Source of the DNA: Alphaproteobacteria bacterium
GTDB lineage: Bacteria > Pseudomonadota > Alphaproteobacteria > RF32 > CAG-239
DNA length: 64,000 bases
Assembly: GCA_017484225.1 (NCBI GenBank)
Contig: JAFUTN010000044.1
Location: forward strand, 4,802-68,801
Direction: 5' to 3'
Shown here one piece after another: positions 4,690-61,867 of the stretch (positions within the stretch are counted from its first letter, which is position 1; each line of letters starts with the position of its first letter). Under the pieces are notes generated by a model. The model was not told where the DNA came from and searched no databases. It saw only the letters and a list, made by a program, of their open reading frames with translations. The position numbers and the translations under genes were made by a program.

Positions 4690-6150
4690 TTATTTCTCTG
4701 TCAACGGCGGAGGCATCAGAATATCAAGGCTTAAGTTATTGACGGATATAAATGCAATTATCAAGCAAATAACGGCGTATATGTGCAACATACTCACCCA
4801 ACTTCGGTTAATATTTTCCGGTAAAGACTGATAAAGCTTAAGTTCCCACCTGTTAATGCCGTGAATACATAAAACTATCAGTATTAATTGCGGAAAAATT
4901 CCGATACTGCGGAAGGTTTCGGAAAACGGAGAAATCATTTTGATTAAAGCCGAGAAAAACAAAAAATATCCGGCGGCAAAAGCATAATATTTAGTGTTTT
5001 TCTGGGTTTGTTCTTTCTTGATTTTTGCCTTTGCCGAATTTTCACCGGAAGCAATTTTTGCAACCTCCACACCACGAACTTTAACCGGTTCTGCCTGCTG
5101 TTTTTTATACTCTTTCATTTCGGCTTTTATTTTTTCATCAAGCATACACAGACCGCAACCTTTTGCCGTAAAATACGCATGATTAGGATTTTTTTTGCAC
5201 TTTTCCATGTGATTATATAAATAATCAAGATGATTTTGCCACTCCAAAGCTGACGGACGTTCATTACCTTTTGTAAAAGCACGTTCAAACAAATTCATTG
5301 TAGTTTTATCAAAATAATCATGAATACTGTATGGATGCGGTTTTTGATATTCATCCGCCCAAATTCCGTAAGCATAGTGATATTGTGCTATCCGCTCTTG
5401 CAATGACAGCATATCACCTTTTTTGCGCGGCGTTCCGCTGAACGGATGAATTCCTTCATTAAGTAACTTGAAAATAATTACGGCCAAAGCAAATTTATCT
5501 TGTTCTTCTCCCATTTGTTCACAAGTTTGCGTCATTCCTTCCGGATAAATATATTCTTCGCTCACATATTCAGCCGGATAGCGAGCTCCCTGTTCCCCTT
5601 TAATACTGAAGCCGTCACAATCAAACATAGCCATAAGCATTGTCTCTTTATATACGGACACATTTGAAGGTTTAAGGTCCACAATATAGTGTCCGCAAGC
5701 ATGCAATGCGGCAACAACGGTGGTAATATTAAATGCGGCACAAACACGATCGGCATAGTTTTCGGTGATACCCAGCTTTTTGCGCACGGCTTTTTGCATT
5801 AAATAATCAAGTGAAATTGCTTTTTCCGTATCTATCAAAGGCATCAGATAACCGACACAATAGCCTTGAGAATCTTCCAATAATGCTGTCGGCCAAGCGA
5901 TTTGTATATATTCTTCTCCTTTAAATTCTCGGGTAGGAATATCCGGACGATTCTGCAGCATAGCCTCCAATTTTTTGCGATTTGTTTCGCTTTTGTTGCG
6001 GTCATGATAAATTTTTGCCACACTTTTTTCGTGCGTAGTATCACGATAAATTTTTCCGGAAGCTCCTCCTTTGTTTAATAACTCACCCAACACCACCGTT
6101 TCGTGATGTCCGTCAGGATATAATGCTAAATATTGTGTATTGTCGGTCAT
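4690..6150 (-). CDS. Hanks-type Ser/Thr protein kinase with a C-terminal membrane anchor (kinase of a TerY-P triad)
   Basis: Kinase subdomains: the VAIK equivalent (SVAKIY) and a catalytic-loop HRDLKPxN equivalent (VDLKPSNV). The C-terminal ~90 residues hold 2-3 hydrophobic helices. The start codon overlaps the stop of the upstream PP2C gene (ATGA). Confidence 0.75.
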   Translation of the reverse strand: MTDNTQYLALYPDGHHETVVLGELLNKGGASGKIYRDTTHEKSVAKIYHDRNKSETNRKKLEAMLQNRPDIPTREFKGEEYIQIAWPTALLEDSQGYCVGYLMPLIDTEKAISLDYLMQKAVRKKLGITENYADRVCAAFNITTVVAALHACGHYIVDLKPSNVSVYKETMLMAMFDCDGFSIKGEQGARYPAEYVSEEYIYPEGMTQTCEQMGEEQDKFALAVIIFKLLNEGIHPFSGTPRKKGDMLSLQERIAQYHYAYGIWADEYQKPHPYSIHDYFDKTTMNLFERAFTKGNERPSALEWQNHLDYLYNHMEKCKKNPNHAYFTAKGCGLCMLDEKIKAEMKEYKKQQAEPVKVRGVEVAKIASGENSAKAKIKKEQTQKNTKYYAFAAGYFLFFSALIKMISPFSETFRSIGIFPQLILIVLCIHGINRWELKLYQSLPENINRSWVSMLHIYAVICLIIAFISVNNLSLDILMPPPLTEK

Positions 6151-6896
6151 GAAATTTTAGCCCATAAAATTGTTTTATCATCAGCGTTAATGCGCTGTGC
6201 TTTTTGATTATTCAACGTATTTTGCAATGCTTCCAGAGCATATATTTTACTTTGTTCATTTTCCAAATATTCGGCTATCGGAATTAAAAAATTATAGCGA
6301 ACGGAGGTGTAATCGTTATTAAATGCAAAGCAGGTAACCCCATCAGTCATCAACATAATTCGGTCGGCATTTTCAAATTCTTGAAAACGTAAACAATCTG
6401 CCCAATCAGTCATGGTATAAAAAAATGTTTCACAGGCAAAAGCTCCGTTTTCCGGCTCGGAAATTATAAAATTGTCATAGTTTCCGTGCTTAAAAGCAAC
6501 TCCGGCTCCATCTCCTATGTGAAAAAAAATCCCCTTGCCTTTGTAATAAAATACCCCCACCAACGTTGCCGAGAAATCAACCAACCCTTGCTCATCCTTA
6601 CTTTCATTCATTTTATGAACAATTAATTTTTGTCTGGCTATATTTATGGCTTTTATAACGTCTGAGCGAATATCGCCGGCATCAGACTTCAACAATTCCG
6701 TGCATAACGTCTCACACACATTTTTGGCACCGATTCTGCCGAACTTTGCCGATCCGGCACCGTCAGAAACCACAGCCACCATTTTTTGCCCTTTGCTTTT
6801 GGCGCACCCGTAATCTTGGCAGGGCAGCCCCCTCGCCTGATGCAACGCCCCGCAAATACTGGCTGTTATAAACGATATGTGGTGATCATTACTCAT
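6147..6896 (-). CDS. PP2C-family Ser/Thr protein phosphatase
   Basis: PPM signatures VVSDGAGS and MLMTDGV (the metal-binding Asp residues). The gene lies between the vWA and kinase genes with 4-bp overlaps. Confidence 0.75.
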   Translation of the reverse strand: MSNDHHISFITASICGALHQARGLPCQDYGCAKSKGQKMVAVVSDGAGSAKFGRIGAKNVCETLCTELLKSDAGDIRSDVIKAINIARQKLIVHKMNESKDEQGLVDFSATLVGVFYYKGKGIFFHIGDGAGVAFKHGNYDNFIISEPENGAFACETFFYTMTDWADCLRFQEFENADRIMLMTDGVTCFAFNNDYTSVRYNFLIPIAEYLENEQSKIYALEALQNTLNNQKAQRINADDKTILWAKIS

Positions 6897-6899
6897 ATT

Positions 6900-7595
6900 T
6901 TACTTTGTCTCATTCCAATCATTAATATCATCAAGATAGCTGTTGGCATTCGGGGCCGCTTTAGATATACACGAAACACTGCGACTGAGCCAGAGGAAAA
7001 ACTCGGTAAATTTAAGACCGGTTAAACGCTTTGGCGGCAACAATGAAAACTTGGCAAGTTTTTCCAAATTGGCATCTTGAGTTCCGATAGCATGAATCAC
7101 AACCTTTTTGTTTTTTTGTGCATACCGGCAAAGCTCTGCCGAATCTTCCCAACCGTAATCAGTAGGCTCTCCGTCACTGATTAAAAAAATCCACGGACGT
7201 TTTGAGGTAATACCGCAGTTATCATACAAACATTTTTGGTCCTCAATTTTTTTCAAAGCAAGTTCCATAGCTTTACCCAAAGGAGTTAAGCCGCCTGCTT
7301 CCATAGTCGGTGCCGTAAAATTCATAGCATCCGTCCAATCGGTAGAAACAACAACTTCATCTTTGCCGAAAGCTTTAATAATCAAAATTTGCACACGTGA
7401 ACTGGCATCAATATCCTCTTTCAATTCTTTTTCTAAGGCCGCCAATCCGGCAATAAGCTGTTTTATCGGTTCTCCACGCATGGAACCCGAACAATCCAAA
7501 ACCAATATGCAAGGAGTTCGTTCATTAGCATTATCGGCAAATTCCACAAAAGGAATCGTTGCCGGAGAATTTTCTTGTTTATTTTCTTCTGTCAT
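6900..7595 (-). CDS. von Willebrand factor A domain protein (TerY-like), cytoplasmic
   Basis: MIDAS motif DCSGSM at the N-terminus of a vWA fold, with no signal peptide. First gene of the vWA-PP2C-kinase operon. Confidence 0.7.
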   Translation of the reverse strand: MTEENKQENSPATIPFVEFADNANERTPCILVLDCSGSMRGEPIKQLIAGLAALEKELKEDIDASSRVQILIIKAFGKDEVVVSTDWTDAMNFTAPTMEAGGLTPLGKAMELALKKIEDQKCLYDNCGITSKRPWIFLISDGEPTDYGWEDSAELCRYAQKNKKVVIHAIGTQDANLEKLAKFSLLPPKRLTGLKFTEFFLWLSRSVSCISKAAPNANSYLDDINDWNETK

Positions 7596-8993: not shown

Positions 8994-9665
8994 TTAGCGC
9001 AAAAATTTTTCAATTTCAGCAACATCTTCTTGGCTATCCACATAAAATATTTTTTTATGAGCAATTTGCGGTTGAATACCTATAAACTGTTTAGAATATT
9101 CTATACAAACAGCTTTCGGCTCATTTTTGCTTAAATAGAGTCTGGCCGCAGATTCACAATGAACCTGAAAATATTTATACTGTGCTTGTTGCAGTTGTTC
9201 AGCAAACTTGCAACACTTTTCGCGGTAATCATTTAACAGCATTATATGGTGTTGTTTATGCCCGATACAATAACTTTCCACAATATCCACCAAGTCGCCG
9301 ATATCAAACGGAGAATGTAAATAATGCGCAATGGCCGGATGCTGCAGAAATTCGTATTGCCGCGGTTTTATGGCGATAATCGGAAATTTTTCCTCAGCAC
9401 CGAGTTCAGGTATAAGCCTATCCAAAAATGCGCGCACCGGATTATAATTTTCATCCACATAAAAAATCATTACATCCGGTTTAATTTCGTAAGTGTAGCG
9501 TAAAAGCTGATAAATATTATCGGTTCCAAACAGCAAAAAGCCGCGTTTTTCAAAAATTTCCTGAAATTTTTTCAGGCGTTCCCTGTCTGTGTCATAGGCA
9601 AAAATCCGTCCGCAATATGTTCGCCTCATCTCTGTACCCTTTCCTTTTATCAGAATATAATCCAC
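8994..9665 (-). CDS. Hypothetical protein, possibly a degenerate CheY-like receiver fold
   Basis: Cytoplasmic 223-aa ORF. Alternating beta-alpha pattern with acidic residues where receiver domains carry them (YDTD...MIFYVD...PIIAIKP), but no clear output domain. Confidence 0.3.
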   Translation of the reverse strand: MDYILIKGKGTEMRRTYCGRIFAYDTDRERLKKFQEIFEKRGFLLFGTDNIYQLLRYTYEIKPDVMIFYVDENYNPVRAFLDRLIPELGAEEKFPIIAIKPRQYEFLQHPAIAHYLHSPFDIGDLVDIVESYCIGHKQHHIMLLNDYREKCCKFAEQLQQAQYKYFQVHCESAARLYLSKNEPKAVCIEYSKQFIGIQPQIAHKKIFYVDSQEDVAEIEKFLR

Positions 9666-22722: not shown

Positions 22723-24321
22723 GTGCAAATGGCACGTCAACAAACGCCGGAAGCACGTTTCAAAATATCTGGAAATATTGATAAAATCAACCGCGGGACC
22801 GTTGACCGTAACGAGGCCTTTATAAACGAAATGTTCGGAAACAAAAGCGGTTTTGTAGCCAAAGAAGAAGCTATGCAGGCGGCTAAAGAAAAAGCACGTC
22901 CGCTGTTTAATGAACTTGAAAACATGGGGGATTTGGACCCTAATTTCACCGCTCGTAACAATTTGATAAATCAATTAAATACTAAAGAATATTCTGACAT
23001 TCCTTTTGGTTCATTACCAGAAAACATAAGAAAACAGGTTAATCAAATCAGAATAAATAGCGGGCAGAAACCATTAAAGTCTGATATGATGATTCCTGCT
23101 GGCGTGGTGCAAAAATGGAGAGGTAATAGAATGTTTGAAAATTACACTCCAGAAAGGATTGCACAAATAGCAGATGAAGTATATCATTCGCCTAATGTAA
23201 AAGTATCAGAAGGAGATTATCCTCATATTCAAAAGTTATTAAAAGAGCGTGAAGGACATAACAACGACTTTGTCGGCTTTATATCTCAAAATCCTAAAAC
23301 AGGGGATACGGTAGCAAAAACGGTATATCAAGTAAAAAGAAATGCCCAGACTGGGCGCCAACCAGTGTCGTTACAAGATAATCTTGTCGGCAGGAAGCGA
23401 CTCTCTGACCTACAAAGCACTTCTTCAGAAGATAATATACCATCACTTGGGGAGATTGTCAAGGGAAATGACGTTATAGCCGATGCGATAAGTAAGGTTA
23501 AACGCTCATATTCGTCATTAAAGAATTTGCCGGATACCGATGCAAGGGTTATTTTGGAAGCGCGTAAGCTTTTGAGCAAGCAAAGTGCAAACCAGCTTGA
23601 CAGCACCGCAGCATATCAGGCACGGCAAGCATTAAAAGAATTTGACCCTGCATTGAAAAATGTTTTCGGCGATAAGCTGGAGCAGGCAAACAAGCTGTAT
23701 GCCGGTGCGCATCAGTTTGAAAACGCTTATGAGCAAGGAAGCAATATTTTTAACAAAATGACACCGGATGAGTTCGGTACTATGTTTAAAAATATGACAG
23801 CCGATGAAAAAATTGCACTCAAAGGCGGAATGAAAGACGAGTTATGGAACATTATTCATGGCAGAGAAAATGAAACTCTGGGGTGGAAAAGAGTTGTACC
23901 GAAATCGGCACAAGATAAAATCCGTATGGCATTAGGGGAAAAAGAAGGCAATAAGCTGATTGCTTATGCCAATGCCGAAATCAAAAAAATGCGCAACTTT
24001 AATGAATTGTTGAGAGGCTCACAAACATCAGAAAAGCAGAAATTGCGCGATGGAGTGGGTTTTGTGCGCAAAATACTCAAAAATCCGACCGGAATTATCG
24101 GGGAAGTTTTGCCGGCGGCAAATGCCAGAAACAGAGGTATTGCCGAAATCATGACTAATCCGAGCGCAACAACAGCGCGGGAAGCTTTTAATCAGGTAGT
24201 TAATCCGACTTCCAAGTTAGAGGCTTTATATCAGGCGTTGTATAATCCGAGCGCAAGAACAACTGCCGTTAATTCGGCGTTGGCGGCCTATTTGGCAAAT
24301 ATGCCGCTGAAAAACAACTAG
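22723..24321 (+). CDS. Orphan 532-aa cytoplasmic protein (no recognisable domain)
   Basis: Long ORF, K/N/Q-rich, with no signal peptide or TM segment. Bracketed by 28-bp direct repeats. No motif I can assign. Confidence 0.5.
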   Translation: MQMARQQTPEARFKISGNIDKINRGTVDRNEAFINEMFGNKSGFVAKEEAMQAAKEKARPLFNELENMGDLDPNFTARNNLINQLNTKEYSDIPFGSLPENIRKQVNQIRINSGQKPLKSDMMIPAGVVQKWRGNRMFENYTPERIAQIADEVYHSPNVKVSEGDYPHIQKLLKEREGHNNDFVGFISQNPKTGDTVAKTVYQVKRNAQTGRQPVSLQDNLVGRKRLSDLQSTSSEDNIPSLGEIVKGNDVIADAISKVKRSYSSLKNLPDTDARVILEARKLLSKQSANQLDSTAAYQARQALKEFDPALKNVFGDKLEQANKLYAGAHQFENAYEQGSNIFNKMTPDEFGTMFKNMTADEKIALKGGMKDELWNIIHGRENETLGWKRVVPKSAQDKIRMALGEKEGNKLIAYANAEIKKMRNFNELLRGSQTSEKQKLRDGVGFVRKILKNPTGIIGEVLPAANARNRGIAEIMTNPSATTAREAFNQVVNPTSKLEALYQALYNPSARTTAVNSALAAYLANMPLKNN

Positions 24322-24489: not shown

Positions 24490-26553
24490 TTATTTGAATT
24501 TATACGATACAATATTCCCCGACGGCATACATTCCGGAAATCCGGTAAAGTTGGAGCCGCATACAACATTAGGAATATTTTCGCATTTGTCGGCATATAC
24601 TTTGTTTAAATCGGTATTAACACCGAAAGCTACAAAACTCTTATCCGACATCAAATCCCAACTGTTGAAAATCATATTTTCACACACACTTTCAGACAAA
24701 TTGGTAAGGCGAATAATGAAAGCATCCTGTTTTTCTTCCACGCTGTTAAGTTGCGAAGAAGAAATATTAACGGTGCCTCCCAAAGCATGAACTATTGCAT
24801 TATTTGCCCCTATCATATCTTCGGGAACGACTCCAATCTTTTTGGCTGTTTCACTATTTAGTCCGCTGTAATCATCCTGAGTTGCATACATTGTGCGAAT
24901 ATTTAGTGCCAACATACTCAGTTGGTCGGCGACTTTATTTTCTTTATATTTATCCATTGCATTAAAATATCCGCTGTAAAATCCCATAGTGAACGGATCT
25001 GCCGTAACTTTTCCGCTATCTATCAGTTCTTTTACCTGCTTCATTTCTTTTTCAATGTCTTTCATTGTGGCATCTATGGCATTCATATCTATGTAATTTT
25101 CAATTTCGTTCTCAAAAATCCTTTTGCCGTTAGCTACAAAACCATTTTTTAAATCACCGGAAATAACATTTTCAACCTTGTTATCTTTATATGTAATGAT
25201 TTTTAAAGTAACCGCTTCTTCAGGAGACTCCATGAATGTTGAAAAATCAACACCTTTTTTAATACCGACTACACCGCCGATAATTTTTTCTCCTTTATTG
25301 TTAAGCAGCAAACCGTTAACGGAATCCAAAACATCGGAAATCTCCATTGCATATTCAGGCAACGCTTGCATAAGATGTTCCATTGCCACATCTTCCGTAT
25401 TTTCGGAAAACTCATTCAAAACATTATTCAACAGCTTTTTATAGGTAGCCTTAAATTTGTCATTAAATTTCATACCGAAAGACATTAAAGGCTTTCCGGA
25501 AACAGGATATGCCAGATTCAAAATTGTTCCCTTATCGGTAATTTTGAGTTCGGTCCCCGGTTTATTATCAAACCCGAAAAATGTTGCTTTCCACTGATTG
25601 GAAAAACCATCCATCAGATTAAAATCTCCGGTGCTTTCAAAAATTTTACGACCGTTTACCTGCATAAAGCTGTCGGAGCTGGTAATTTTACTTAATACGA
25701 CCTTTATCAATTTTACGATATCTTTATTTTCCTGTTTGGAAAAACCGAATTCACCGATTGCCGGTATAACCTCATCAAGACCTTTAATTATTTGTGTCTG
25801 TTCGTATTTATTGTTGCTGTCTGCCGATTTGAAAGAAAACTGATTTTTATCGGCATCATACGAAAAACTTATTTTAAATTTTCCTAAATTTTCCAATCCG
25901 TAAAGAGACGCATAAAGATTAACCATCTCCCCGCTTTTATCTTCACACGAAAAAGAAGAGTTTTGCGTAAATTTAGGATAAACAAATCCACCTTCATATT
26001 CACAAGAATATTCTTTCCCTTCTGCCGAGGCTGATGAAAAATCAAAACATTCCGCCAAAGCGGTAAATGTTTCCAAGTTGCCGTTTTCGGCAAAACTCTG
26101 AACTTTGGCAAACAAATTTTCATCTTCACAAATTATTTTACTGCCGACCGAAACAATATCATCTTCTTCTTTTTGCTGAACAGATAACACTCCGTCATTT
26201 ACCGAAAACTCTGTTTTGGAAAGTTCCGGATATTTTTCATGTGTATCAAAAGATACCGAGCCGGACAGCTTGCCGTTTGCATAATTTACCTTGATAACAT
26301 TTTGACCTGCAAAAATATCAGCTTCACCTTCTTTAACCCCGTTTACCATATTATATTGCTGTGAAATTGAACCATTCACATTGTATATGGTGTATTTGCC
26401 GGTTTTCTGAAAAAATTTTCTTTGCACCGTTGTATGGATTTTTCCGTCAGGATAATAAGTTGTTTCCGGTTGATTTCCCATCCACACTGCACCACCGCAC
26501 GCCGCAGCTATTATCGCACCGGCGGAAACAGAAGCAATTACCTTTGTTTTCAT
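24490..26553 (-). CDS. Large secreted/lipoprotein-like hypothetical protein (687 aa)
   Basis: Signal peptide MKTKVIASVSAGAIIAAACGG (lipobox-like AACG). Otherwise no recognisable domains; Asn/Ser/Gly-rich beta-type composition. Confidence 0.5.
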   Translation of the reverse strand: MKTKVIASVSAGAIIAAACGGAVWMGNQPETTYYPDGKIHTTVQRKFFQKTGKYTIYNVNGSISQQYNMVNGVKEGEADIFAGQNVIKVNYANGKLSGSVSFDTHEKYPELSKTEFSVNDGVLSVQQKEEDDIVSVGSKIICEDENLFAKVQSFAENGNLETFTALAECFDFSSASAEGKEYSCEYEGGFVYPKFTQNSSFSCEDKSGEMVNLYASLYGLENLGKFKISFSYDADKNQFSFKSADSNNKYEQTQIIKGLDEVIPAIGEFGFSKQENKDIVKLIKVVLSKITSSDSFMQVNGRKIFESTGDFNLMDGFSNQWKATFFGFDNKPGTELKITDKGTILNLAYPVSGKPLMSFGMKFNDKFKATYKKLLNNVLNEFSENTEDVAMEHLMQALPEYAMEISDVLDSVNGLLLNNKGEKIIGGVVGIKKGVDFSTFMESPEEAVTLKIITYKDNKVENVISGDLKNGFVANGKRIFENEIENYIDMNAIDATMKDIEKEMKQVKELIDSGKVTADPFTMGFYSGYFNAMDKYKENKVADQLSMLALNIRTMYATQDDYSGLNSETAKKIGVVPEDMIGANNAIVHALGGTVNISSSQLNSVEEKQDAFIIRLTNLSESVCENMIFNSWDLMSDKSFVAFGVNTDLNKVYADKCENIPNVVCGSNFTGFPECMPSGNIVSYKFK

Positions 26554-53204: not shown

Positions 53205-54560
53205 ATGATTAATAAAAAACTTATATTGGCTGTTTCGTTCGGATTGATTACATCTGCCAACGTTCATGCCGAATCAATTTTTGAAGCCATGACCGAGGCT
53301 TACAACACGAATCCTGTATTGCAGGGACAACGGGCAACCAGCGGTATTGCAAATGAAGATGCAGCATTAGCTCGTTCCGGTTTCAGACCGGTGATAAGTG
53401 CAAATTCCAGTTACACGGATTCGCACACTCATACCAAACCTAACCCTACAAATGACGGCTACGGTAAGGGGTATAATGCTCAGGTTTCTCAATCGTTGTT
53501 CAGCGGTTTGCAAACTTACAATGCCGTGAGAGCTGCCGACCAAGCCGCAAAAGCCGGTATTCAGACTTTGTATGAAACAGAACAAAATGTTTTGCTGAAT
53601 GCCTCAAAAGCCTATTTAGATGTTTTACGCGACGAAGCTATTGTTAAGTTGCAAAAAAACAATGAAAAATTACTAAAAAAACAATTAGATGAAACACTTG
53701 CCCGTTTTGATGTCGGTGAAGTTACCAGAACTGACGTGGCTCAATCAAGAGCAAGTTACGCCCAAGCACAATCTGATTTGATTTCTGCCGAAGGCAACTT
53801 GGAAATATCTAAAGCAAACTATTTGCATTATGTCGGCAGCCAACCTGACGATTTGAAAACACCGGAAGGTTTGCAAAAATTTTTCCCTGTTCAATATGCC
53901 GAAGCTTTGCAATATGCCAAAAATAACAATCATGCTCTTAAAGCAGCCCAAAAAAATGCCAGAGCAGCAAAATATGATGTGAGAAGCAAAACAGGCGCAC
54001 TGTTACCGGAAGTATCGTTTAATGCCAGAACCGGTAAAAATGAAGCTTCCAACCATCTCGGCAAAAATATTAATACAACTGATACGGAATACACCGTTAA
54101 TATGAGTGTTCCACTCTATGCCGGCGGTGCTACTCGCGCCAAAATACGCCAAAGCAAGTATAAAAAATGGGCAGCCAAAGAAAACCTAAAAGAAACAGAG
54201 CGCGCCGTTGAAGCCGGAGTTACCGGTTCTTGGGAGGCTATGCAAACCAGTCGTTCCAACATAAAATCCATTCAAGAGCAAGTAAAAGCTTCGGCCATTG
54301 CTTTGGAAGGAACGCAAAAAGAAGAGGCTTTAGGTAATCGCACTGTCTTAGATGTATTAAATGCTTATCAAGCTTTACTGTTATCTCAGGTTACCGAAGT
54401 AGAAGCTCAGCATGACTACTACCTTTCAGGTTTACAACTTCTGCAGGTTATGGGTAAACTCACCGCTAAAGATATGCATTTAAATGTCAGCTATTACAAC
54501 CCTGAGGAACATTTTGAAAATACCAAAGGTAAATGGTTGACTCTGGATATTGATGACTAA
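53205..54560 (+). CDS. TolC-family outer-membrane efflux protein
   Basis: Signal peptide, then two TolC/OEP repeats (…LEEALQYAKNNNHALKAAQ…). 451 aa. Followed by a terminator at 54591-54622. Confidence 0.75.
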   Translation: MINKKLILAVSFGLITSANVHAESIFEAMTEAYNTNPVLQGQRATSGIANEDAALARSGFRPVISANSSYTDSHTHTKPNPTNDGYGKGYNAQVSQSLFSGLQTYNAVRAADQAAKAGIQTLYETEQNVLLNASKAYLDVLRDEAIVKLQKNNEKLLKKQLDETLARFDVGEVTRTDVAQSRASYAQAQSDLISAEGNLEISKANYLHYVGSQPDDLKTPEGLQKFFPVQYAEALQYAKNNNHALKAAQKNARAAKYDVRSKTGALLPEVSFNARTGKNEASNHLGKNINTTDTEYTVNMSVPLYAGGATRAKIRQSKYKKWAAKENLKETERAVEAGVTGSWEAMQTSRSNIKSIQEQVKASAIALEGTQKEEALGNRTVLDVLNAYQALLLSQVTEVEAQHDYYLSGLQLLQVMGKLTAKDMHLNVSYYNPEEHFENTKGKWLTLDIDD

Positions 54561-54893: not shown

Positions 54894-55616
54894 ATGTTTG
54901 GAATGAAGTATTCTGCATTTATTTTTTGTTTTATCGGTGCCGGTGCTGCCTTTGCCGAAACATGGAATTGCGGACCGGCAACTGACGGGGTATACAGTGA
55001 CAGCGTTAAATGCACGTATGATGAAGCAAGTAAAACTTTAACCATTTCCGGTGAAGGAAAAATGGGGAATTATCATTATGTACAGGTTGACGGAGAATCT
55101 GCAACCGACACACCATGGCTAAGAAAAGATATTGTCCACGCCGTTGTGGAAAAAGGGGTTACCACAATCGGGGATAGAGTATTTAAGGCATTATACAATT
55201 TGGAAGATGTCACCGGATTGGAAAATATTGAATCAGTAGGGAATTTTGCTTTTGGTTATGATGGAAAATTAACAAGTATAGATATTCCGAATGCACAAAA
55301 TATCGGTCAGGGTGCGTTTGCAGATACTGTTTCTTTAATGTATGCAGGGTTCTCGGAAAGTGTTGATTTTGCTACCGAACCGCATCTTCCATTTAGAGCT
55401 TCACGGCTTTCTAAATGTGCTTCTCATGGAGAATGCGGAAATTGCGGAGAAAAATTCGTGCAAGCGGGAGTTGGTTGTGTAAATGATTGCTATGTCGGAT
55501 ATTATCCGACAAATCAAGGATACTGCAAAATAATTAAACTCCGTTACACCCTGCCGGAAGCAGACGCGGCAACGAGTAATGACAACGAAAATATGATTGA
55601 ATGGATATTTGAATAA
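54894..55616 (+). CDS. Secreted leucine-rich-repeat (BspA-like) plus Cys-rich protein sharing a C-terminal tag with 574..1218
   Basis: Signal peptide, then LRR_5/BspA-like repeats (...VTTIGDRVFKALYNLEDVTGLENIESVGNFAFGYDGKLTSIDIPNAQNIGQGAFADT...), then Cys-rich CxxC units. The C-terminus KIIKLRYTLPEADAATSNDNENMIEWIFE is nearly identical to that of the 574..1218 protein. Confidence 0.6.
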   Translation: MFGMKYSAFIFCFIGAGAAFAETWNCGPATDGVYSDSVKCTYDEASKTLTISGEGKMGNYHYVQVDGESATDTPWLRKDIVHAVVEKGVTTIGDRVFKALYNLEDVTGLENIESVGNFAFGYDGKLTSIDIPNAQNIGQGAFADTVSLMYAGFSESVDFATEPHLPFRASRLSKCASHGECGNCGEKFVQAGVGCVNDCYVGYYPTNQGYCKIIKLRYTLPEADAATSNDNENMIEWIFE

Positions 55617-55693: not shown

Positions 55694-58600
55694 CTAAAAA
55701 CGGTATTTAGCGCCAACGGTTCCGGTGTGTTCGGTATATTTACCGCGCCAGTTACCGATATATGTCATGTTGATGTCAAATTTTTCATTCATCTTGATAT
55801 TCAGTCCCAAATTACCTTCTAAGCTGAATTTATCGGTATTTGAGGTAACAAACGTATAGCTTCTGCCGTTTTTAAGCTGAATAACCGATTTTTCGTCATC
55901 AGATTTCATATCATAACCGACACCGAGATATGCCTCCGGACGCACAATAGCGGAATCCCCTACTCTGTAACTTTTATTCATCCGCAAGCCGGCAAGTCCG
56001 GTAACCACTTTCATATCGGCAGAATCTACATGCTGAGTCGTATCGTCCGTGTATGCGTCACGAGAAATACTGGTTACGCGCGCTCCGAACTCCGGAATAT
56101 AATTTATGTAGTGACCGATAAATTCATAACCGGTTTTAAATTGAACCGACGAATACTTAACATCATACTTAGCTTTGAATTTTTTACCCAAAGCTTTTTT
56201 ATCTTCTTCGTATTCGGACATGCTGTATGATGCCATCAAATTAGCAAACCAATGATTTGGTTTCACTTCACCGTAAACAAATCCGGTGTGAGTGGTAATA
56301 TCTGTATCACGGGAACTATTTTCCGCCGTTGACAAATCAAAGGCATAGCCGACGCCTACTCTTACGGACTCACCTAAATTGGTATCGGCACCGATTGCCA
56401 TACCTTTAGCATCCAAATCAAAACCGCTTATGGCACCGTCATCATCATAATTTCCCTTAGAAAAGTAAGCTTTTGCCCATGTTGTGCTGTATTTGAGCGA
56501 ATTATCTCCGGATGATACGCCGTAATATCTTGTGCCGTAAGAATCCTGATAGCTGTCGTAAGTATTGTTGTATTGATAATAACCGCTGTTCATATATCTG
56601 CCGAACATGGAGCGATTACGCTGAATAACACGATTGTTGCGCAAGTGAGAGCCTATCATATTAAACAAACGGTCACTGTTGGTTATGGCAGCGGTTTTCA
56701 CTATCGGTGCTTCGGACGGAGCAATGGCTGCCAACGCCTCATTGAGTTTTTTGCCGTCATTTTGAGCCAATTCAAACAAACCGTCGGCAATACTTTGTCC
56801 GACCGTTCCATCATCAAACGGCGACAAATCAACCCAGTTGCGCGCAGTTAAAGCGTTATCTTCCGTTCCGCCGTTTTCACGGGAAACCTCTTCAGCCGTT
56901 TTGTAGTATTGAATGATATAAACACCTTCTTCACCGGCCTTTTTGCTGATTTTATACATATTATTGCTTACAACATCCGTGAAATTGTTAACAAAATCAT
57001 CATTACCGGCCGAAAGCAAACGAACTTCAACCGAAGGTTTGCCGCCCAATAATCCCGTTCCGAGTGTTGCTTTCAACACAGCCCCCTCGTTAACCACCAT
57101 ATTATCGGCAACAACCAATCCATGTCTGCCATCTGTTACGGCGCGGATTTTTAAATCCAAAACCGAACCGGAATTAAACACAACACTGTTCAAATTAACG
57201 GTATTTGTTCCGATTGTTAAGCTTCCTCCGGTTGCATACAAAGAATCGGTTGTTCCGAATGTTGCGGAAGCATCATCTGCTTTCAAGTTACCGCTGTTAA
57301 GATTAATTCGGTTGTCGGTTATTGAATTTTTCAGCGTAACATCTCCGGCAATATTTATGATTCCGTTATCACCGTTAATGCCGTCTGCCAAAACAATCTT
57401 GTTACCGTTTGTCGTGCTAAAATTAAGTATTCCGGCATTATAAATTGCATTAGCTGCCTCATTAACCATATTTCCTTCAAAGCTTACATCTCTGTCATCA
57501 GCCATAACATTAACCGTTCCTTTATTGTATATTGCACCTCCGGAACCGGTTGCATTATTGTCATATAAGTTAACATTGGTTAAATTAACCTTGGCGGAAC
57601 TGTTGACTACTTTAATGGCGGAGCCGTCAATACCGGAAGCATTTTTTATGTCAACGTTTGAAATGTTAAGTGTTGATATGTTATTCAAAACAAAACCGCT
57701 ATGTGCATTCATATTAATGCTTGATGCTTTATCGGCAGACGAGCTCAGCACGCCTCTCACATTAAATGTGTCTGTTGATGAACTGCCGAGATTGTCTTCA
57801 ACCTTATATATGTTGTTATAGCGATTGAAATAAAATTCTTTTTCTGCTCCCAGATTTGCCTGATTTACTAAGGCTAACGTGTCACCTTGATAGCCGATAA
57901 ATGTTTTTTCTCCCGGAGTAAGTGAGGTAACTTTCAAAACAATACTGTCATTTGCCGTATCTTTGGTTCCTATTTCCAATATTCCGTTCACACCGAATTT
58001 TTGATTATAAACAGCATACTTGTCGTTCCATGCCGTAGAAATTTTTATTGCATCACTTACTTCTTTTTCGGTTAACCCTACCTGTTTTTCAACCGAAGTT
58101 TGTTCTCGCAACTCGTCCGTCATACTTAATTGTAACGCATTGTTATTATTTGCATTATTCAATACTTTAATCTTGTATGTATCCCCGACATCTGCATCAG
58201 CAATAAATTCGGAATCGCTATTCAATATATTCAGCTTATTAAGCAGAACCGTTCCGTTGGAAGCAGTGCCTGTTGATGTTCCGTAATCATCTGTTGTGGT
58301 AAATGTATCTGATTGCAAAGTAACATAATTAATGTCAATTTCATATTTTGCAACATCTGTTCCGATATTGGAAAACAGTGACTTAAACGCATTATCCCGA
58401 GTGGTGTTATCCAAGGTATTAACGGTTAAAGTTCCGGAACTTCCGCCGCCAAAAGTAACAATGGCATCTTTCATTTCTCCTGCAAGCAAAAATGTTCCGG
58501 TTGAACCGTCCGTAATTCCGACATTAACGGCATAATTATTTGTTCCGTTAATAACATCATCAAGTTCAAATACACCGGCTTTGGATAAACCGATATTCAA

Positions 58601-61600
58601 ATTACTTCCGTCCATATAAACCGCACTGTTGCCGGAATTATCTTTAATTACTGATGTGTAACCGACGTCTGTTGTTTCTCCGCTATCCGGATCGGTAACC
58701 GTTGTGCCGGTAACATACAAATTCACATCCTTATCGGCATAAATTGCACTGCCCTCTTCATCTGCTCTGGCAGACGAATTGCCTTTGAAATCAACATTCG
58801 TAAAATTTTGAATTGAATTTGCATCGGCAAATGTAAATGTATTCACGCCGTTGGTGAAAAGAACGTTATTGATATCATATTCCGCACCGTCTCCGGAAAC
58901 AAAACCGGTGTATTGGTTCAAATCAATCGTTGATTTTGTTCCGCCGGAATTACTCTTTCCGTTGATTACAAATTTTCCGGCACCGGTTGTTCCCATATAG
59001 TTTTGTCCCGCCAAATCGGAAACATATTCCGTCTCTTCCACAACAATTTTATCATTATTAACCACTTTTACATTGTTAAATGAGCCAAAATCAAAACTGC
59101 GGGAAGAAAATCCGGCGGCAGTTCCGTTCAATCTGTTAACCATTACGAGATTGTCACCCAAACCGGCTTCAATATCTTTACTGTATGTAGTCGGACCTTC
59201 CGTAATCACAAGACTGTCGTTTGTTGTATCTTTGGTAGCAAGTTTAACCGTGCCGTTAACGATTTCCGTCATTTTTCCGCGGGTATAATTTTCAGCCCAA
59301 TTTGTTTCAGATTCAACACTATCGGTATACGGCGCGCCGATTATTGAGCTAACCGGAAACAACAATCCCTCTACCGGACTACCGTCTTCTTCTTCCAAAC
59401 GAAGCTGAATATTGTCTTTATTGTTCATATTTTTAACGATTTGCAGCTTTTTCCCGCTTTCTTTCAAGCTGTTATAAGCATCAACACTAAAATCGGTAAA
59501 ATTAATTTTGCTCAAAGTAATATACTGTCCGGCATCCGCACTTTGGGCAACAATTCTGTCCCACCAATAAGTGCTTCCGGAGGTTTCTGCCGCCGAATTA
59601 CCCAGTGATAAATCTATTTCGTAACGAGCATTTTCGGTTGATGTAAACTGCCGGTATCCTTCCGGAATTGTTCCGTCTCCGCCGGAAAACTTGTATTCGG
59701 TATACATTCCGGATATTCCGTCATAGGAAACAGCATTTCCAAGCATACTGACGGTTATTTTATCAATATTTATTTCCCCTTGATTAAGTCTGGCATCTGA
59801 GGCACTTGCATAGTCCCATTTTATTTGGCTGTTCAGGTGGAATTTTTCCGTTTTTGCATCATTTCCACTTATTATGACTTTATATCCGTTAACACCGGAA
59901 ATACCTTGATTTAAATATATTTCTCCGCCGTTAACGGCATTAAATGTCACATTAACATCTGAAATTCCGACATATCCGGCAGCATCAGATCCTTCTGTCC
60001 CTGTTTGCCCGATTACAATACCGAAAGCACTGTTGCCAGCACTTCCAATCACAGTTGAAGCAACTACACCTTCAACATCATCATCTGTTGTAATATCTCC
60101 TAAATCAGTGCCATCGGCAACAATTTTAAAATCTGTTTTAGACTGTATGGCGTATCCCGATGTCGGAAGCAACCTGACATTTGTAAACGTTATGGTTTTA
60201 TCGCCGCTTTTTTTGGTTGTTTTGAAATCAAACAAATTGCTTGCATTTTGAAAAGCAACATTTTTAACGGTAAATGTATCGGCAAACGTTTCACGATAGC
60301 TACCGGTTTGTGAATTTTTATCAATATAAAATCCTCCGGCACCGTTGATTGTTGACAAGAAAATATTGCCGGAAGAATCTTTTCCCCATTTACCTTCAAT
60401 ATCAAATGACGTTCCGTGAATCGGAAGCTGACCGTAATATAAACCTCCGAAGATATCATATCTTGCTTTGCTTGAATTATACGCATAAACCTCATCTGCA
60501 TTTTGCGAAATAAAACTTCTGCTGACAGGAGCACCGCTGTCTGAATATGTGCAACTTGAAAGATTGCAAGTGACATTAGGAGACAGTGTTGTTGCCACCC
60601 ACAATGCATCAGCGGTTTTATCTCCCTTATCTTCTCTATCTTCAACTTTCTTTTCTAATTTATAAACACCGTTATCACCTTGCTTCAGATACGAAACTTT
60701 GCTTAAATATATTTTCTTTTTTATTGCCGACTCATAACCGAGTTCTCTTTGGGTATATTCAGCCGTATCCGGATCATAATCACTCATCCATGTAATTGTG
60801 TTATCAACATTTTCAAGTTCAACGCTGCCGCCTACCTGCTGTTCATAACTATTCCATCCTCCTTCTCCGGAAGCTGTCCAGCTTCCGCCTCCGGTTTTCA
60901 GGATAGTCCACTGCCAAGACCCGCTTTCGTCAACCGACGGAGTATCAAAAGAAAAGTGACTTGAATCAAATTTTCCGTTAAATATTCCGGTTTGTATAAC
61001 ATCACTACTGCCGGTAGAAAGTGCTGACATATAAAACCTTCCGTCACCCAGTGTCAAATCTCCGAATTTATACACACCATCCCTGTTGTCATATCTTGTA
61101 TCAAAATACACATAAGAACCGACGTTGATGTTGGAATCGGTAATTCCCACATCATTACTTGAACTTTCATTGTATAAATAAAACCTTCTGCTGCCACTTG
61201 AAGATGTAATATTTGTCGTCGTTGCACCGGTTATCAAATCATGAAGATGAACGTCCCTCGTCAAATTAATATTGAGAGTTCCGCCGTTCATATAAACAGC
61301 TTCATTTTTTCCGTTTGCCGTATTATGATTACCGGAATTTCCTATCTTCAATTCATTTGTAACATTAAGAGTTAAATTACCTCCGTCCATATAAACGGCA
61401 CCGCCGTGACCGCTGGCACTATTGCCGGTGATATTGGAAGCTCCGGTTATCGTCACATCTTTAGTGCTGTATATCGCGCCGCCGTTAGTGCCTGCACTGT
61501 TACCGGTAATATCACCGCCTATCGTTATTGCCGAGCCGGTATTATAAATTGCGCCACCGCTACCGTCATTTGTCTTGTTGTTTGTTAAACTGCCTATGGT

Positions 61601-61867
61601 TCCGCTAACCGTTCCTTCATTAAGAATTGCACCGCCGTTTTTGTTGGATGCATCATCTGCCGGAGATAATCCGGAAAAAGACTTTCCGTCCAGATTTGCA
61701 TCATTTCCGCTTTCAACCACACAACGACTGTTTCCGTCACAGGTAATTGTTTCGGCCAATACCGGAGATACGACAAAAAACAGTCCGGTATTAATCAAAA
61801 AACACTTTTTCAAAACACTGCGATACTGTGCATTCAAAAAACCAAGGGCAGATTTGGTGTAGCGCAT
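55694..61867 (-). CDS. Type Va autotransporter, 2057 aa (beta-helical passenger plus C-terminal beta-barrel)
   Basis: Extended signal peptide (MRYTKSALGFLNAQYRSVLKKCFLINTGLFFVVSPVLA). Gly/Thr/Asn/Ser-rich passenger with GGAIY-type pectate-lyase-like repeats (GGAIYN, GGAIYSTKDV, HGGAVYMDGG). The C-terminal ~280 aa show an alternating-hydrophobic beta-barrel pattern and end in ...GAKYRF (terminal Phe). Confidence 0.8.
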   Translation of the reverse strand: MRYTKSALGFLNAQYRSVLKKCFLINTGLFFVVSPVLAETITCDGNSRCVVESGNDANLDGKSFSGLSPADDASNKNGGAILNEGTVSGTIGSLTNNKTNDGSGGAIYNTGSAITIGGDITGNSAGTNGGAIYSTKDVTITGASNITGNSASGHGGAVYMDGGNLTLNVTNELKIGNSGNHNTANGKNEAVYMNGGTLNINLTRDVHLHDLITGATTTNITSSSGSRRFYLYNESSSNDVGITDSNINVGSYVYFDTRYDNRDGVYKFGDLTLGDGRFYMSALSTGSSDVIQTGIFNGKFDSSHFSFDTPSVDESGSWQWTILKTGGGSWTASGEGGWNSYEQQVGGSVELENVDNTITWMSDYDPDTAEYTQRELGYESAIKKKIYLSKVSYLKQGDNGVYKLEKKVEDREDKGDKTADALWVATTLSPNVTCNLSSCTYSDSGAPVSRSFISQNADEVYAYNSSKARYDIFGGLYYGQLPIHGTSFDIEGKWGKDSSGNIFLSTINGAGGFYIDKNSQTGSYRETFADTFTVKNVAFQNASNLFDFKTTKKSGDKTITFTNVRLLPTSGYAIQSKTDFKIVADGTDLGDITTDDDVEGVVASTVIGSAGNSAFGIVIGQTGTEGSDAAGYVGISDVNVTFNAVNGGEIYLNQGISGVNGYKVIISGNDAKTEKFHLNSQIKWDYASASDARLNQGEINIDKITVSMLGNAVSYDGISGMYTEYKFSGGDGTIPEGYRQFTSTENARYEIDLSLGNSAAETSGSTYWWDRIVAQSADAGQYITLSKINFTDFSVDAYNSLKESGKKLQIVKNMNNKDNIQLRLEEEDGSPVEGLLFPVSSIIGAPYTDSVESETNWAENYTRGKMTEIVNGTVKLATKDTTNDSLVITEGPTTYSKDIEAGLGDNLVMVNRLNGTAAGFSSRSFDFGSFNNVKVVNNDKIVVEETEYVSDLAGQNYMGTTGAGKFVINGKSNSGGTKSTIDLNQYTGFVSGDGAEYDINNVLFTNGVNTFTFADANSIQNFTNVDFKGNSSARADEEGSAIYADKDVNLYVTGTTVTDPDSGETTDVGYTSVIKDNSGNSAVYMDGSNLNIGLSKAGVFELDDVINGTNNYAVNVGITDGSTGTFLLAGEMKDAIVTFGGGSSGTLTVNTLDNTTRDNAFKSLFSNIGTDVAKYEIDINYVTLQSDTFTTTDDYGTSTGTASNGTVLLNKLNILNSDSEFIADADVGDTYKIKVLNNANNNNALQLSMTDELREQTSVEKQVGLTEKEVSDAIKISTAWNDKYAVYNQKFGVNGILEIGTKDTANDSIVLKVTSLTPGEKTFIGYQGDTLALVNQANLGAEKEFYFNRYNNIYKVEDNLGSSSTDTFNVRGVLSSSADKASSINMNAHSGFVLNNISTLNISNVDIKNASGIDGSAIKVVNSSAKVNLTNVNLYDNNATGSGGAIYNKGTVNVMADDRDVSFEGNMVNEAANAIYNAGILNFSTTNGNKIVLADGINGDNGIINIAGDVTLKNSITDNRINLNSGNLKADDASATFGTTDSLYATGGSLTIGTNTVNLNSVVFNSGSVLDLKIRAVTDGRHGLVVADNMVVNEGAVLKATLGTGLLGGKPSVEVRLLSAGNDDFVNNFTDVVSNNMYKISKKAGEEGVYIIQYYKTAEEVSRENGGTEDNALTARNWVDLSPFDDGTVGQSIADGLFELAQNDGKKLNEALAAIAPSEAPIVKTAAITNSDRLFNMIGSHLRNNRVIQRNRSMFGRYMNSGYYQYNNTYDSYQDSYGTRYYGVSSGDNSLKYSTTWAKAYFSKGNYDDDGAISGFDLDAKGMAIGADTNLGESVRVGVGYAFDLSTAENSSRDTDITTHTGFVYGEVKPNHWFANLMASYSMSEYEEDKKALGKKFKAKYDVKYSSVQFKTGYEFIGHYINYIPEFGARVTSISRDAYTDDTTQHVDSADMKVVTGLAGLRMNKSYRVGDSAIVRPEAYLGVGYDMKSDDEKSVIQLKNGRSYTFVTSNTDKFSLEGNLGLNIKMNEKFDINMTYIGNWRGKYTEHTGTVGAKYRF

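What the first reader, a model, noticed from the sequence alone, without database searches (positions are those of the whole stretch)
54894..55616. Two otherwise unrelated secreted proteins 54 kb apart end in a near-identical ~28-aa acidic C-terminal tag
The 54894..55616 protein (BspA-type LRR N-terminal half) and the 574..1218 protein (pure Cys-repeat) share only their last ~28 residues: C-KII-K-LRYTLPEADAATSNDNENMIEWIFE versus C-VYKIRYTVQEADALTSSDNENYIEWVFD. A conserved extreme C-terminus on divergent secreted proteins is how several bacterial sorting and secretion systems recognise cargo, including type 9 CTDs, sortase and PEP-CTERM signals, and type 1 secretion signals. This tag matches none of those that I know. 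The second gene is adjacent to a TolC-family gene and the giant autotransporter.
Basis: seen in the sequence. Interest (0 to 1): 0.6.

Follow-up and report, generated by a model that had tools for sequence, protein, structure and literature searches.

The report
New C-terminal tag on secreted proteins
Two unrelated exported proteins in this window end in the same 26-residue acidic tail, and that tail marks a whole family of such proteins (at least 12-14 per genome) in uncultured ruminant-gut Alphaproteobacteria. It matches no described sorting signal and is probably an address or anchor label whose reader is still unknown.

Summary
The proteins at 54894..55616 (+) and 574..1218 (-) share only their last 28 residues (18/28 identical, E 8e-11). 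It is not a private duplication. A tag profile run against 1.84 billion cluster representatives found 61 true carrier clusters, and the match always ends at the C-terminus. Among 154 carrier sequences seen, none has an internal copy. Two NCBI MAGs ('Alphaproteobacteria bacterium', ruminant gut) hold at least 12 and 14 carriers. Consensus: [KR]-x-R-Y-T-[LMI]-[PQ]-E-A-D-x-[AL]-T-S-[ND]-D-N-E-N-x-I-E-W-I-F-E-COOH, net charge about -5, no Cys or Gly.

Carriers have signal-peptide-like N-termini. Their bodies are BspA-type LRRs (40 of 54) or eukaryote-like Cys-rich repeats. Synonymous sites in the tag are nearly saturated (pS 0.68) while pN is 0.12, so selection acts on the peptide. AlphaFold2 gives a short helix plus a low-confidence free tail in both window proteins. 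Pfam, NCBIfam and PDB have no match. No neighbouring gene is conserved, so the TolC adjacency is incidental and type 1 secretion is unlikely.

Best reading, inferred and not shown: a lineage-specific recognition tag for a step after Sec export, either surface export or anchoring. The partner is unknown.

The parts
54894..55616 (+). Carrier gene A: 240-aa exported BspA-type LRR protein ending in the tag
   Evidence: ORF. LRR_5 match at residues 85-157. AF2 model has mean pLDDT 87.9. Foldseek best hits are gut-bacterial cell-surface LRR proteins 4h09 and 4gt6.
54894..54956 (+). Predicted Sec signal peptide of A (MFGMKYSAFIFCFIGAGAAFA|ETWNCG)
   Evidence: Read from the sequence: hydrophobic core followed by A-F-A. 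The mature start ETWNCGP recurs in many carriers. No dedicated signal-peptide predictor was available.
55416..55526 (+). Cys-rich stalk of A (C175..C211) immediately before the tag
   Evidence: Cys 175, 184, 195, 199 and 211 are invariant or nearly invariant across 54 carriers. AF2 pLDDT is 77-87 here.
55536..55613 (+). C-terminal tag of A: KLRYTLPEADAATSNDNENMIEWIFE (stop codon at 55614..55616)
   Evidence: AF2 predicts a helix at residues 220-227 and then coil; the last 10 residues have mean pLDDT 57.
574..1218 (-). Carrier gene B: 214-aa exported Cys-repeat protein (26 Cys) ending in the tag; identical to MBR1399771.1 (IJ564_06340)
   Evidence: ORF. Identity to P0012 shown. No Pfam domain above cut-off.
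1153..1218 (-). Predicted Sec signal peptide of B (MIKKIILVLNVLLFSQISYVYA|QC)
   Evidence: Read from the sequence. AF2 models an N-terminal helix at residues 2-27.
577..654 (-). C-terminal tag of B: KIRYTVQEADALTSSDNENYIEWVFD (stop codon at 574..576)
   Evidence: AF2 predicts a helix at residues 194-201 and then coil with pLDDT about 50.
53205..54560 (+). TolC-family outer-membrane factor: a neighbour of A, judged not to be part of the feature
   Evidence: PF02321 at 8.7e-64. No TolC lies next to carriers in any other locus.
55694..61867 (-). 2057-aa autotransporter convergent with A: a neighbour, judged not to be part of the feature
   Evidence: PF03797 beta-domain at residues 1796-2035 plus Chlamydia PMP repeats. 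It ends in ...AKYRF, a normal beta-signal unlike the tag.

Best explanation
The shared tail is a lineage-specific, 26-residue, acidic C-terminal recognition tag. It defines a large family of Sec-exported surface-type proteins (BspA-like LRR and Cys-rich repeat proteins) in a clade of uncultured ruminant-gut Alphaproteobacteria. Proposed mechanism: the N-terminal signal peptide takes the protein into the periplasm, where the Cys-rich body folds with disulfides. The tail consists of a basic [KR]-x-R, a short helix (PEADAATS), an acidic N/D/E loop, and an amphipathic I-E-W-I-F-E end with a free carboxylate. It stays exposed and is bound by one common partner encoded elsewhere in the genome. That partner directs a shared step after Sec export, most likely passage across the outer membrane or tethering to it, perhaps by edge-strand pairing of the I/W/F face. 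Shown here: the tag's existence, its strict C-terminal position, its copy number, the diversity of passengers, peptide-level selection, a predicted unstructured state, and no match to known signals. Inferred: Sec export, recognition by a partner, and surface export or anchoring as the outcome.
For: A tag profile found 61 true carrier clusters among 1.84 billion representatives, and every match ends at the last residue. Of 154 carrier sequences, none has an internal copy. Single MAGs hold at least 12 and 14 carriers, and only 28 of the 61 clusters were checked. In the 26-residue tag, 18 positions are at least 94% conserved, net charge averages -4.7, and there is no Cys or Gly. In 11 distinct tag DNAs pS is 0.68 and pN 0.12, with Ser codons switching between AGY and TCN. 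Passengers differ: 40 of 54 are LRR_5, the rest are Ephrin_rec_like, furin-like, TNFR or VSP-type Cys repeats, and one is a YD-like fragment. A crude test finds signal-peptide-like N-termini in 122 of 137 full-length carriers; the others are mis-started, truncated or narrowly missed. AF2 gives helix plus low-confidence coil for the tag in both window proteins, next to confidently folded bodies. Pfam, NCBIfam and PDB have no match.
Against: No partner or machinery was identified, and no neighbouring gene family recurs across about ten independent contexts. No localisation or processing data exist. The tag lacks the features of every proven sorting signal. The terminal residue is Glu rather than an aromatic, which argues against a classical beta-signal. 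Low AF2 confidence could simply reflect a short segment. Recombination also helps keep the 3' end similar: two adjacent genes share 130 nt at 94.6% identity.
Confidence: 0.45

Rival explanations
1. Docking or effector motif. The tail is not read by a secretion machine. Instead it is a dockerin-like peg that plugs many different adhesin modules onto one scaffold or onto each other, or it is a short linear motif that binds a host or prey molecule after release.
For: It is a modular, strictly terminal peptide, very strongly conserved, on many different binding modules. It is predicted to be free and unstructured. The acidic N/D/E cluster with a terminal Glu could bind a divalent cation (read from the sequence). 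The organisms carry host-association genes such as VirB8, ankyrin repeats and autotransporters.
Against: No scaffold with repeated receptor modules was seen in 64 kb of window plus about 180 kb of related loci. There is no Pfam dockerin match. The tag has one acidic loop without Gly, not the duplicated F-hand of dockerins.
Confidence: 0.2
2. Structural or folding element. The tail is simply the conserved last piece of a Cys-rich stalk domain, acting as a cap or an intramolecular chaperone, inherited by descent and recombination and having no addressing role.
For: A Cys lies 5-8 residues before the RYT motif in 59 of 65 carriers. In the LRR subfamily the conserved block extends upstream over five Cys. 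A 130-nt 3' block including the last Cys loop is exchanged between neighbouring paralogues.
Against: The modules preceding the tag are not homologous to one another (compare CCPVCADLDGYC, NSNFSLEYGYC and GFEKVDGEC), and a few carriers have no nearby Cys. AF2 does not pack the tail onto the body in either protein. Eighteen near-invariant, mostly polar residues are unusual for a cap.
Confidence: 0.15
3. Type 1 secretion signal used with the adjacent TolC-family protein.
For: The tag is an acidic, uncleaved-looking extreme C-terminus, and a TolC-family gene lies 334 bp upstream of carrier A.
Against: Carriers have N-terminal signal peptides and up to 58 Cys, which implies periplasmic folding. No carrier has RTX/HemolysinCabind repeats. 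No ABC or MFP gene was found among the window ORFs annotated. No TolC lies next to any other carrier.
Confidence: 0.04
4. DNA-level or historical artefact. The similarity reflects recent gene conversion, a mobile-element end or an attachment site, and not a selected peptide.
For: Some tag ORFs are short remnants lying beside integrases. Adjacent paralogues share a nearly identical 3' end. Carriers sit at operon breakpoints.
Against: pS of 0.68 against pN of 0.12 shows long divergence with the peptide held constant. Sequences downstream of the stop codons are unrelated. The integrases are explained by an adjacent tRNA-Gly. There are no hits in IMG/VR or PLSDB.
Confidence: 0.03
5. Degron or processing handle. 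The tail is recognised by a periplasmic C-terminal protease or a PDZ protein, for regulated turnover or maturation of the family.
For: It needs a free, exposed, invariant C-terminus with an aromatic and hydrophobic end. An invariant basic [KR]-x-R just before the tag could be a cleavage site.
Against: Known tail-specific and PDZ proteases prefer non-polar last residues (established knowledge), whereas 95% of tags end in Glu. No protease gene is linked to the carriers.
Confidence: 0.1

Closest known systems
Type 9 secretion C-terminal domain (CTD; TIGR04183 / Por_Secre_tail) of Bacteroidota, including Tannerella BspA
   Same: It is a conserved C-terminal module on many otherwise unrelated proteins that also carry Sec signal peptides, including BspA-type LRR adhesins. 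There are many carriers per genome, scattered and not in operons with the machinery.
   Different: The T9SS CTD is a folded beta-sandwich of about 70-100 aa found in Bacteroidota. This tag is 26 aa, predicted as helix plus coil, occurs in Alphaproteobacteria, and gives no hit to the CTD models.
Sortase-like sorting signals (LPXTG/sortase, PEP-CTERM/exosortase, GlyGly-CTERM/rhombosortase and related -CTERM families)
   Same: These are short, family-defining, strictly C-terminal tags with multiple carriers per genome, and the processing enzyme is often encoded elsewhere.
   Different: All of them are tripartite: motif, hydrophobic transmembrane helix, basic tail. This tag has no hydrophobic helix and a net charge of about -5. 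No NCBIfam model matches it.
Type 1 secretion C-terminal signals (HlyA, RTX proteins, HasA, metalloproteases ending D-x-x-x hydrophobic)
   Same: They are acidic, uncleaved extreme C-termini, and a TolC-family gene lies next to one carrier.
   Different: T1SS substrates lack Sec signal peptides, are poor in Cys, usually carry RTX repeats and have weakly conserved signals. Here there are signal peptides, many Cys, no RTX repeats and a near-invariant sequence.
Dockerin modules of cellulosomal proteins
   Same: A short acidic C-terminal module is appended to many different catalytic or binding modules in rumen organisms. It works by docking to a common receptor.
   Different: Dockerins are about 70 aa with two Ca-binding F-hand repeats (D-x-N-x-D-G) and occur in Gram-positive Clostridia. 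This tag is 26 aa with one Gly-free acidic loop and gives no Pfam dockerin hit.
Outer-membrane protein beta-signal (C-terminal aromatic strand read by BamA/BamD)
   Same: The last residues, I-E-W-I-F, alternate hydrophobic/aromatic and polar like an amphipathic terminal beta-strand.
   Different: The beta-signal ends a beta-barrel and normally finishes with Phe or Trp as the very last residue. Here the last residue is Glu in 95% of carriers, and the proteins are soluble LRR or Cys-rich folds. The window's own autotransporter ends ...KYRF.

Membership tests
BspA-type leucine-rich repeat proteins (Pfam LRR_5, PF13306) | Match to the LRR_5 profile above the gathering score, and an LRR solenoid fold | tested here: met
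   Carrier A scores 37.7 bits against a cut-off of 27.7. Forty of 54 carriers match, best E 1.5e-40. The AF2 model has pLDDT >95 in the LRR, and Foldseek hits 4h09 and 4gt6. Carrier B is not a member.
T9SS C-terminal domain | Beta-sandwich CTD of about 70-100 aa matching TIGR04183 / PF18962 | tested here: not met
   No such hit in Pfam or NCBIfam at E <= 1 for the window proteins, nor at E <= 0.01 for 54 carriers. The conserved block is 26 aa and is predicted as helix plus coil.
T9SS C-terminal domain | T9SS machinery (PorK/L/M/N, SprA, PorU/V) present in the genome | not testable with these tools
   No complete genome of a carrier organism could be retrieved. None of these genes appears in the window or in the fetched loci.
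Sortase / exosortase / rhombosortase-type sorting signals | Tripartite C-terminus: signature motif, hydrophobic transmembrane helix of about 15-20 aa, then a basic cluster | tested here: not met
   The tag has 7-8 acidic residues, net charge -3 to -6, and no hydrophobic run longer than I-E-W-I-F. No NCBIfam -CTERM model hit.
Type 1 secretion substrates | No N-terminal Sec signal peptide; secretion directly from the cytoplasm | tested here: not met
   A heuristic finds signal-peptide-like N-termini in 122 of 137 full-length carriers, and most of the rest by eye. No SignalP-type predictor was available.
Type 1 secretion substrates | Linked ABC transporter and membrane-fusion protein genes, and commonly RTX Gly-rich repeats | tested here: not met
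   No ABC exporter or HlyD-type gene among the window ORFs annotated, nor beside carriers in loci L001-L014. No HemolysinCabind hit in 54 carriers.
Dockerin | Two tandem Ca-binding F-hand segments (D-x-N-x-D-G...) of about 22 aa each, matching PF00404 | tested here: not met
   No Pfam hit. The tag has a single acidic loop and no Gly at all.
Outer-membrane beta-barrel beta-signal | Terminal aromatic residue as the last residue of a beta-barrel domain | tested here: not met
   The last residue is E in 62 of 65 carriers. AF2 predicts LRR and Cys-rich folds with no barrel.

The most novel reading that the evidence does not exclude
The tag is the cargo label of an undescribed system in diderm Alphaproteobacteria that acts after Sec export to translocate proteins across the outer membrane or attach them to the cell surface. 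It would be a functional analogue of the T9SS CTD or of exosortase signals, but would use a 26-residue acidic peptide with no transmembrane segment and a free -I-E-W-I-F-E carboxy-terminus. The machinery would be encoded away from its cargo and is still unidentified.
Probability: 0.3. Interest if true: 0.8.

Novelty: new variant of a known kind. Interest (0 to 1): 0.6.

Why it matters
C-terminal tags shared by many cargo proteins have repeatedly led to the discovery of secretion and surface-attachment machinery, including sortases, exosortases, rhombosortases and the type 9 system. This tag has the same genomic signature: it is strictly terminal, it occurs in a dozen or more cargo proteins per genome, its passengers are diverse, and the peptide is under strong selection. 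It has none of the structural features of the known classes, and it occurs in an uncultured gut alphaproteobacterial lineage for which no such system is described. It gives a concrete handle for finding the partner by phylogenetic profiling or co-folding. It also gives a ready marker for the adhesin-like surface repertoire (BspA-type LRR and eukaryote-like Cys-rich proteins) of these rumen organisms. If the tag proves to be only a structural cap, the finding reduces to a lineage-specific domain family.

Tried and rejected
(1) The word-indexed protein search with tag profiles returned only 7-9 short fragments and missed the full-length carriers. The exhaustive representative search was needed.

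(2) Strict and relaxed degenerate DNA patterns gave 0 hits in GTDB representative genomes, JGI metagenome contigs and IMG/VR. The patterns do work on the window and the loci. The organism could therefore not be named beyond 'Alphaproteobacteria bacterium', and no whole genome was available for profiling.

(3) A GyrB search for taxonomy gave many relatives at 83-92% identity, but the only source name was 'Alphaproteobacteria bacterium'.

(4) An exact look-up of the 240-aa window protein found nothing on record.

(5) Integrase adjacency of one tag ORF is explained by a tRNA-Gly target, not by the tag.

(6) Several very short 'carriers' are artefacts or pseudogenes. P0003 is produced by a scaffold gap of Ns. 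P0001 results from an in-frame TAA.

(7) A search for recurrent neighbour families across all loci found only the carriers themselves.

(8) PDB sequence search, PLSDB tblastn and literature searches for the motif found nothing relevant.

(9) Resemblances to an EF-hand loop, the T7SS YxxxD/E motif, the TonB or TolB box, and LIR motifs were considered from memory and dropped. The registers do not fit or the biology is incompatible with a Sec-exported, Cys-rich alphaproteobacterial protein.

(10) Three profile hits (P0064, P0068, P0069) are false positives that arise from internal partial repeats.

Full report
**1. Observation**

The window holds a 240-aa ORF at 54894..55616 (+) and a 214-aa ORF at 574..1218 (-). 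BLASTP of the two proteins aligns only the last 28 residues: IIKLRYTLPEADAATSNDNENMIEWIFE against VYKIRYTVQEADALTSSDNENYIEWVFD. That is 18/28 identical and 24/28 similar, with E 8e-11, and no other segment is significant. Six-frame tblastn finds no third copy in the window. A degenerate DNA pattern for the last 11 residues hits only these two sites, with 0.00 expected from shuffles.

Protein A has a BspA-type LRR (PF13306, 37.7 bits against a cut-off of 27.7). Protein B has only Cys repeats. NCBIfam has no model for either tail.

- The pair in this window is 64% identical, so 'near-identical' overstates it.
- The gene beside TolC (53205..54560) and the 2057-aa autotransporter (55694..61867) is the 54894 gene.

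**2. Is it only a two-gene duplication?**

No. A seven-sequence profile of the tag was run with HMMER against 1.84 billion cluster representatives (50% identity). It gave 64 hits at E <= 1e-3 and 57 at E <= 1e-10. Three hits (P0064, P0068, P0069) are false positives from internal partial repeats. In the other 61, the match runs to the last residue of the protein, or to the last but one.

P0012 is identical to window protein B and is MBR1399771.1 (IJ564_06340) from an NCBI MAG named only 'Alphaproteobacteria bacterium'.

Cluster membership was read for 28 of the 61 clusters. This places at least 12 tag-ending proteins in the IJ564 MAG and at least 14 in a second MAG, IKN67 (verified by regular expression). 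Contigs come from ruminant and buffalo gut metagenomes, with sample labels XIEF21 and TONG22.

**3. Anatomy of the tag (65 sequences)**

The consensus is [KR]-x-R-Y-T-[LMI]-[PQ]-E-A-D-[AE]-[AL]-T-S-[ND]-D-N-E-N-[M/T/Y..]-I-E-W-I-F-E-COOH.
- Eighteen of the 26 positions are at least 94% conserved.
- Net charge averages -4.7.
- There is no Cys and no Gly.
- In 59 of 65 sequences the last Cys of the passenger lies 5-8 residues before the Tyr.
- A divergent form...TTNDNNNW/YVEW[TI]FE, occurs in three clusters (P0065-P0067). P0065 looks like a YD-repeat fragment.

**4. The carriers**

Sizes run from about 190 to 546 aa. Forty of 54 full-length carriers match LRR_5. The others are Cys-rich proteins with Ephrin_rec_like, furin-like, TNFR, NCD3G or Giardia-VSP-like signals.

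N-termini look like Sec signal peptides: a crude hydrophobic-run test passes 122 of 137. The failures are N-terminally truncated, called from an upstream start, or narrowly missed, such as MKHFKLLNFTFLSMLYSVNTYA. No dedicated predictor was available, so Sec export is inferred.

**5. Peptide or DNA?**

Eleven distinct tag DNAs from the window and loci L001-L011 differ mostly at synonymous sites. Mean pS is 0.68 and mean pN 0.12. The invariant Ser uses both AGY and TCN codons, and Ala, Thr and Leu use three or four codons each. Sequence after the stop codons is unrelated. The conservation is therefore selection on the peptide.

Recombination also contributes. In L011, two adjacent carriers with unrelated 5' parts share their last 130 nt at 94.6% identity. 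The 3' module is evidently moved between paralogues.

**6. Structure**

AlphaFold2 with family alignments folds the LRR of protein A confidently (pLDDT >95) and its Cys-rich stalk moderately (77-87). The tag is a short helix at residues 220-227 (PEADAATS) followed by coil, and the last ten residues have mean pLDDT 57.

Protein B gives the same picture: a helix at residues 194-201, then coil at pLDDT about 50. Foldseek places protein A with gut-bacterial cell-surface LRR proteins 4h09 and 4gt6, and weakly with EGFR-type L-domain plus Cys-rich architectures.

The tail looks like an exposed peptide awaiting a partner, not part of the fold. Low confidence on a short tail is weak evidence, however.

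**7. Genomic context**

Carriers are scattered among housekeeping genes:
- rpsA and a PPIase or malQ (L001, L002)
- virB8...gpsA and tRNA-Gly (L003-L005)
- lon/recR and ferritin (L006)
- mutS and a histidine kinase (L008)
- rplO (L011)
- smr...adk-secY (L012)
- lpxA (L013)
- rseP-bamA-lpxD-fabZ (L014)

An all-against-all comparison of ORFs around the carriers found only one family present in three or more independent contexts, and that was the carriers themselves. TolC and the autotransporter are therefore incidental neighbours.

No HlyB- or HlyD-type gene is present among the window ORFs annotated. The integrases beside one short tag ORF are explained by an adjacent tRNA-Gly.

**8. Distribution**

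- Neither a strict nor a relaxed DNA pattern occurs in the GTDB representative genomes, the JGI metagenome contigs or IMG/VR as held here. Both patterns work on the window and loci.
- PLSDB has no tblastn match.
- PDB has no relative.
- The literature library does not contain the motif.
- GyrB from the window has many relatives at 83-92% identity in metagenomes. The only source name among them is 'Alphaproteobacteria bacterium'.
- HydF, glycogen-metabolism genes and the sample sources point to an anaerobic gut lineage.

**9. Interpretation**

The genomic signature matches that of protein-sorting or docking tags:
- strictly terminal position
- a dozen or more carriers per genome
- heterologous passengers that all carry signal peptides
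- intense selection on the peptide
- no linkage between cargo and any machinery

I therefore favour a recognition tag for a common step after Sec export, either surface export or anchoring (confidence 0.45). The amphipathic I-E-W-I-F-E end is a candidate edge strand, and the acidic loop a possible cation site. Both of those are inferences.

Rivals:
- Dockerin-like or host-binding motif (0.2).
- Structural cap of the Cys-rich stalk (0.15).
- Degron or processing handle (0.1).
- Type 1 secretion signal (0.04). Signal peptides, many Cys, no RTX repeats and no ABC/MFP gene speak against it.
- Pure DNA-level artefact (0.03). The pS/pN contrast speaks against it.

**10. Comparison with known systems**

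Functionally the tag most resembles the T9SS CTD and the exosortase or rhombosortase class. In both, many Sec-exported cargo proteins share one tail and the machinery is encoded elsewhere.

It fails the defining features of each known class:
- It is not a 70-100-aa beta-sandwich.
- It has no transmembrane helix plus basic tail.
- It is not free of a signal peptide.
- It has no F-hand repeats.
- It has no terminal aromatic residue on a barrel.

These points rest.

I rate it a new variant of a known kind, a C-terminal cargo tag. There is roughly a 30% chance that it marks a truly new envelope-sorting system.

Noticed in passing
L011 9218-12135; L012 10001-15308; L013 10001-11685; L014 5885-10852: Carriers sit exactly where conserved operons are broken. 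In L011, rplO is followed by two carriers instead of secY. In L012, secY-adk lies next to two other carriers. In L014, fabZ is followed by a carrier. In L013, lpxA lies next to another carrier. The paralogous carriers may act as recombination substrates for genome rearrangement.
   Followed up: partly
L011 10750-10879 versus 12006-12135: Two adjacent carriers have unrelated N-terminal parts but share their last 130 nt at 94.6% identity. The 3' module (last Cys loop plus tag) appears to be exchanged by recombination or gene conversion.
   Followed up: yes
L001 and L002 9461-10159: A close homologue of window gene A carries an in-frame TAA between the LRR and the Cys-rich/tag part, so it is called as 160-aa and 52-aa genes. 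The same allele sits in two different upstream contexts (PPIase versus malQ). It is either a pseudogene or a tag-less variant.
   Followed up: partly
L003 4779-5204 and L004 3418-3966: A short tag-ending ORF with no signal peptide lies beside a tRNA-Gly(GCC). Two different integrase-bearing elements are inserted there in different samples. L003 also has an in-frame deletion relative to L004.
   Followed up: partly
L006 9409-10156 and L007 848-1595: The 51-aa 'protein' P0003 is an assembly artefact. The carrier gene is interrupted by a run of N (a scaffold gap) inside its repeat region.
   Followed up: yes
window 24490..26553 (-): A 686-aa protein has a C-terminal part matching type IVb pilin families (PilS N-terminal, bundlin). 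This is an unusually long protein for a pilin-like domain.
   Followed up: no
window 4690..7595 (-): Three consecutive genes encode a Ser/Thr protein kinase, a PP2C phosphatase and a VWA-domain protein, forming a eukaryote-like signalling triad.
   Followed up: no
window 55694..61867 (-): A 2057-aa autotransporter with Chlamydia polymorphic-membrane-protein repeats is convergent with carrier A, with only 78 bp between the two stop codons.
   Followed up: partly
P0065 (65-aa fragment on a 580-bp ENA contig): A YD/Rhs-like repeat fragment (YDDYGN...YIYD) is joined directly to the divergent tag form ...TTNDNNNWVEWTFE. The tag may therefore also be attached to Rhs-type proteins in a related lineage.
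   Followed up: no
window 22723..24321 (+), 40181..41821 (-), 1536..2096 (+), 8994..9665 (-), 29949..30938 (-): These sizeable ORFs have no Pfam match. 1536..2096 encodes a signal-peptide-bearing 186-aa protein next to carrier B.
   Followed up: no
Genome contigs and metagenome contigs collections: The tag is present in NCBI MAG proteins but gives 0 DNA hits in the GTDB representative genomes and the JGI contigs held here. One carrier (P0006) is labelled as coming from JGI. The lineage seems to be missing from these collections, or its contigs fall below their filters.
   Followed up: partly
L014 19191-19958 (-); L003 1588-2364 (+): An ankyrin-repeat protein and a VirB8 (type 4 secretion) gene occur in the same organisms as the carriers, which fits a host-associated lifestyle.
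   Followed up: no
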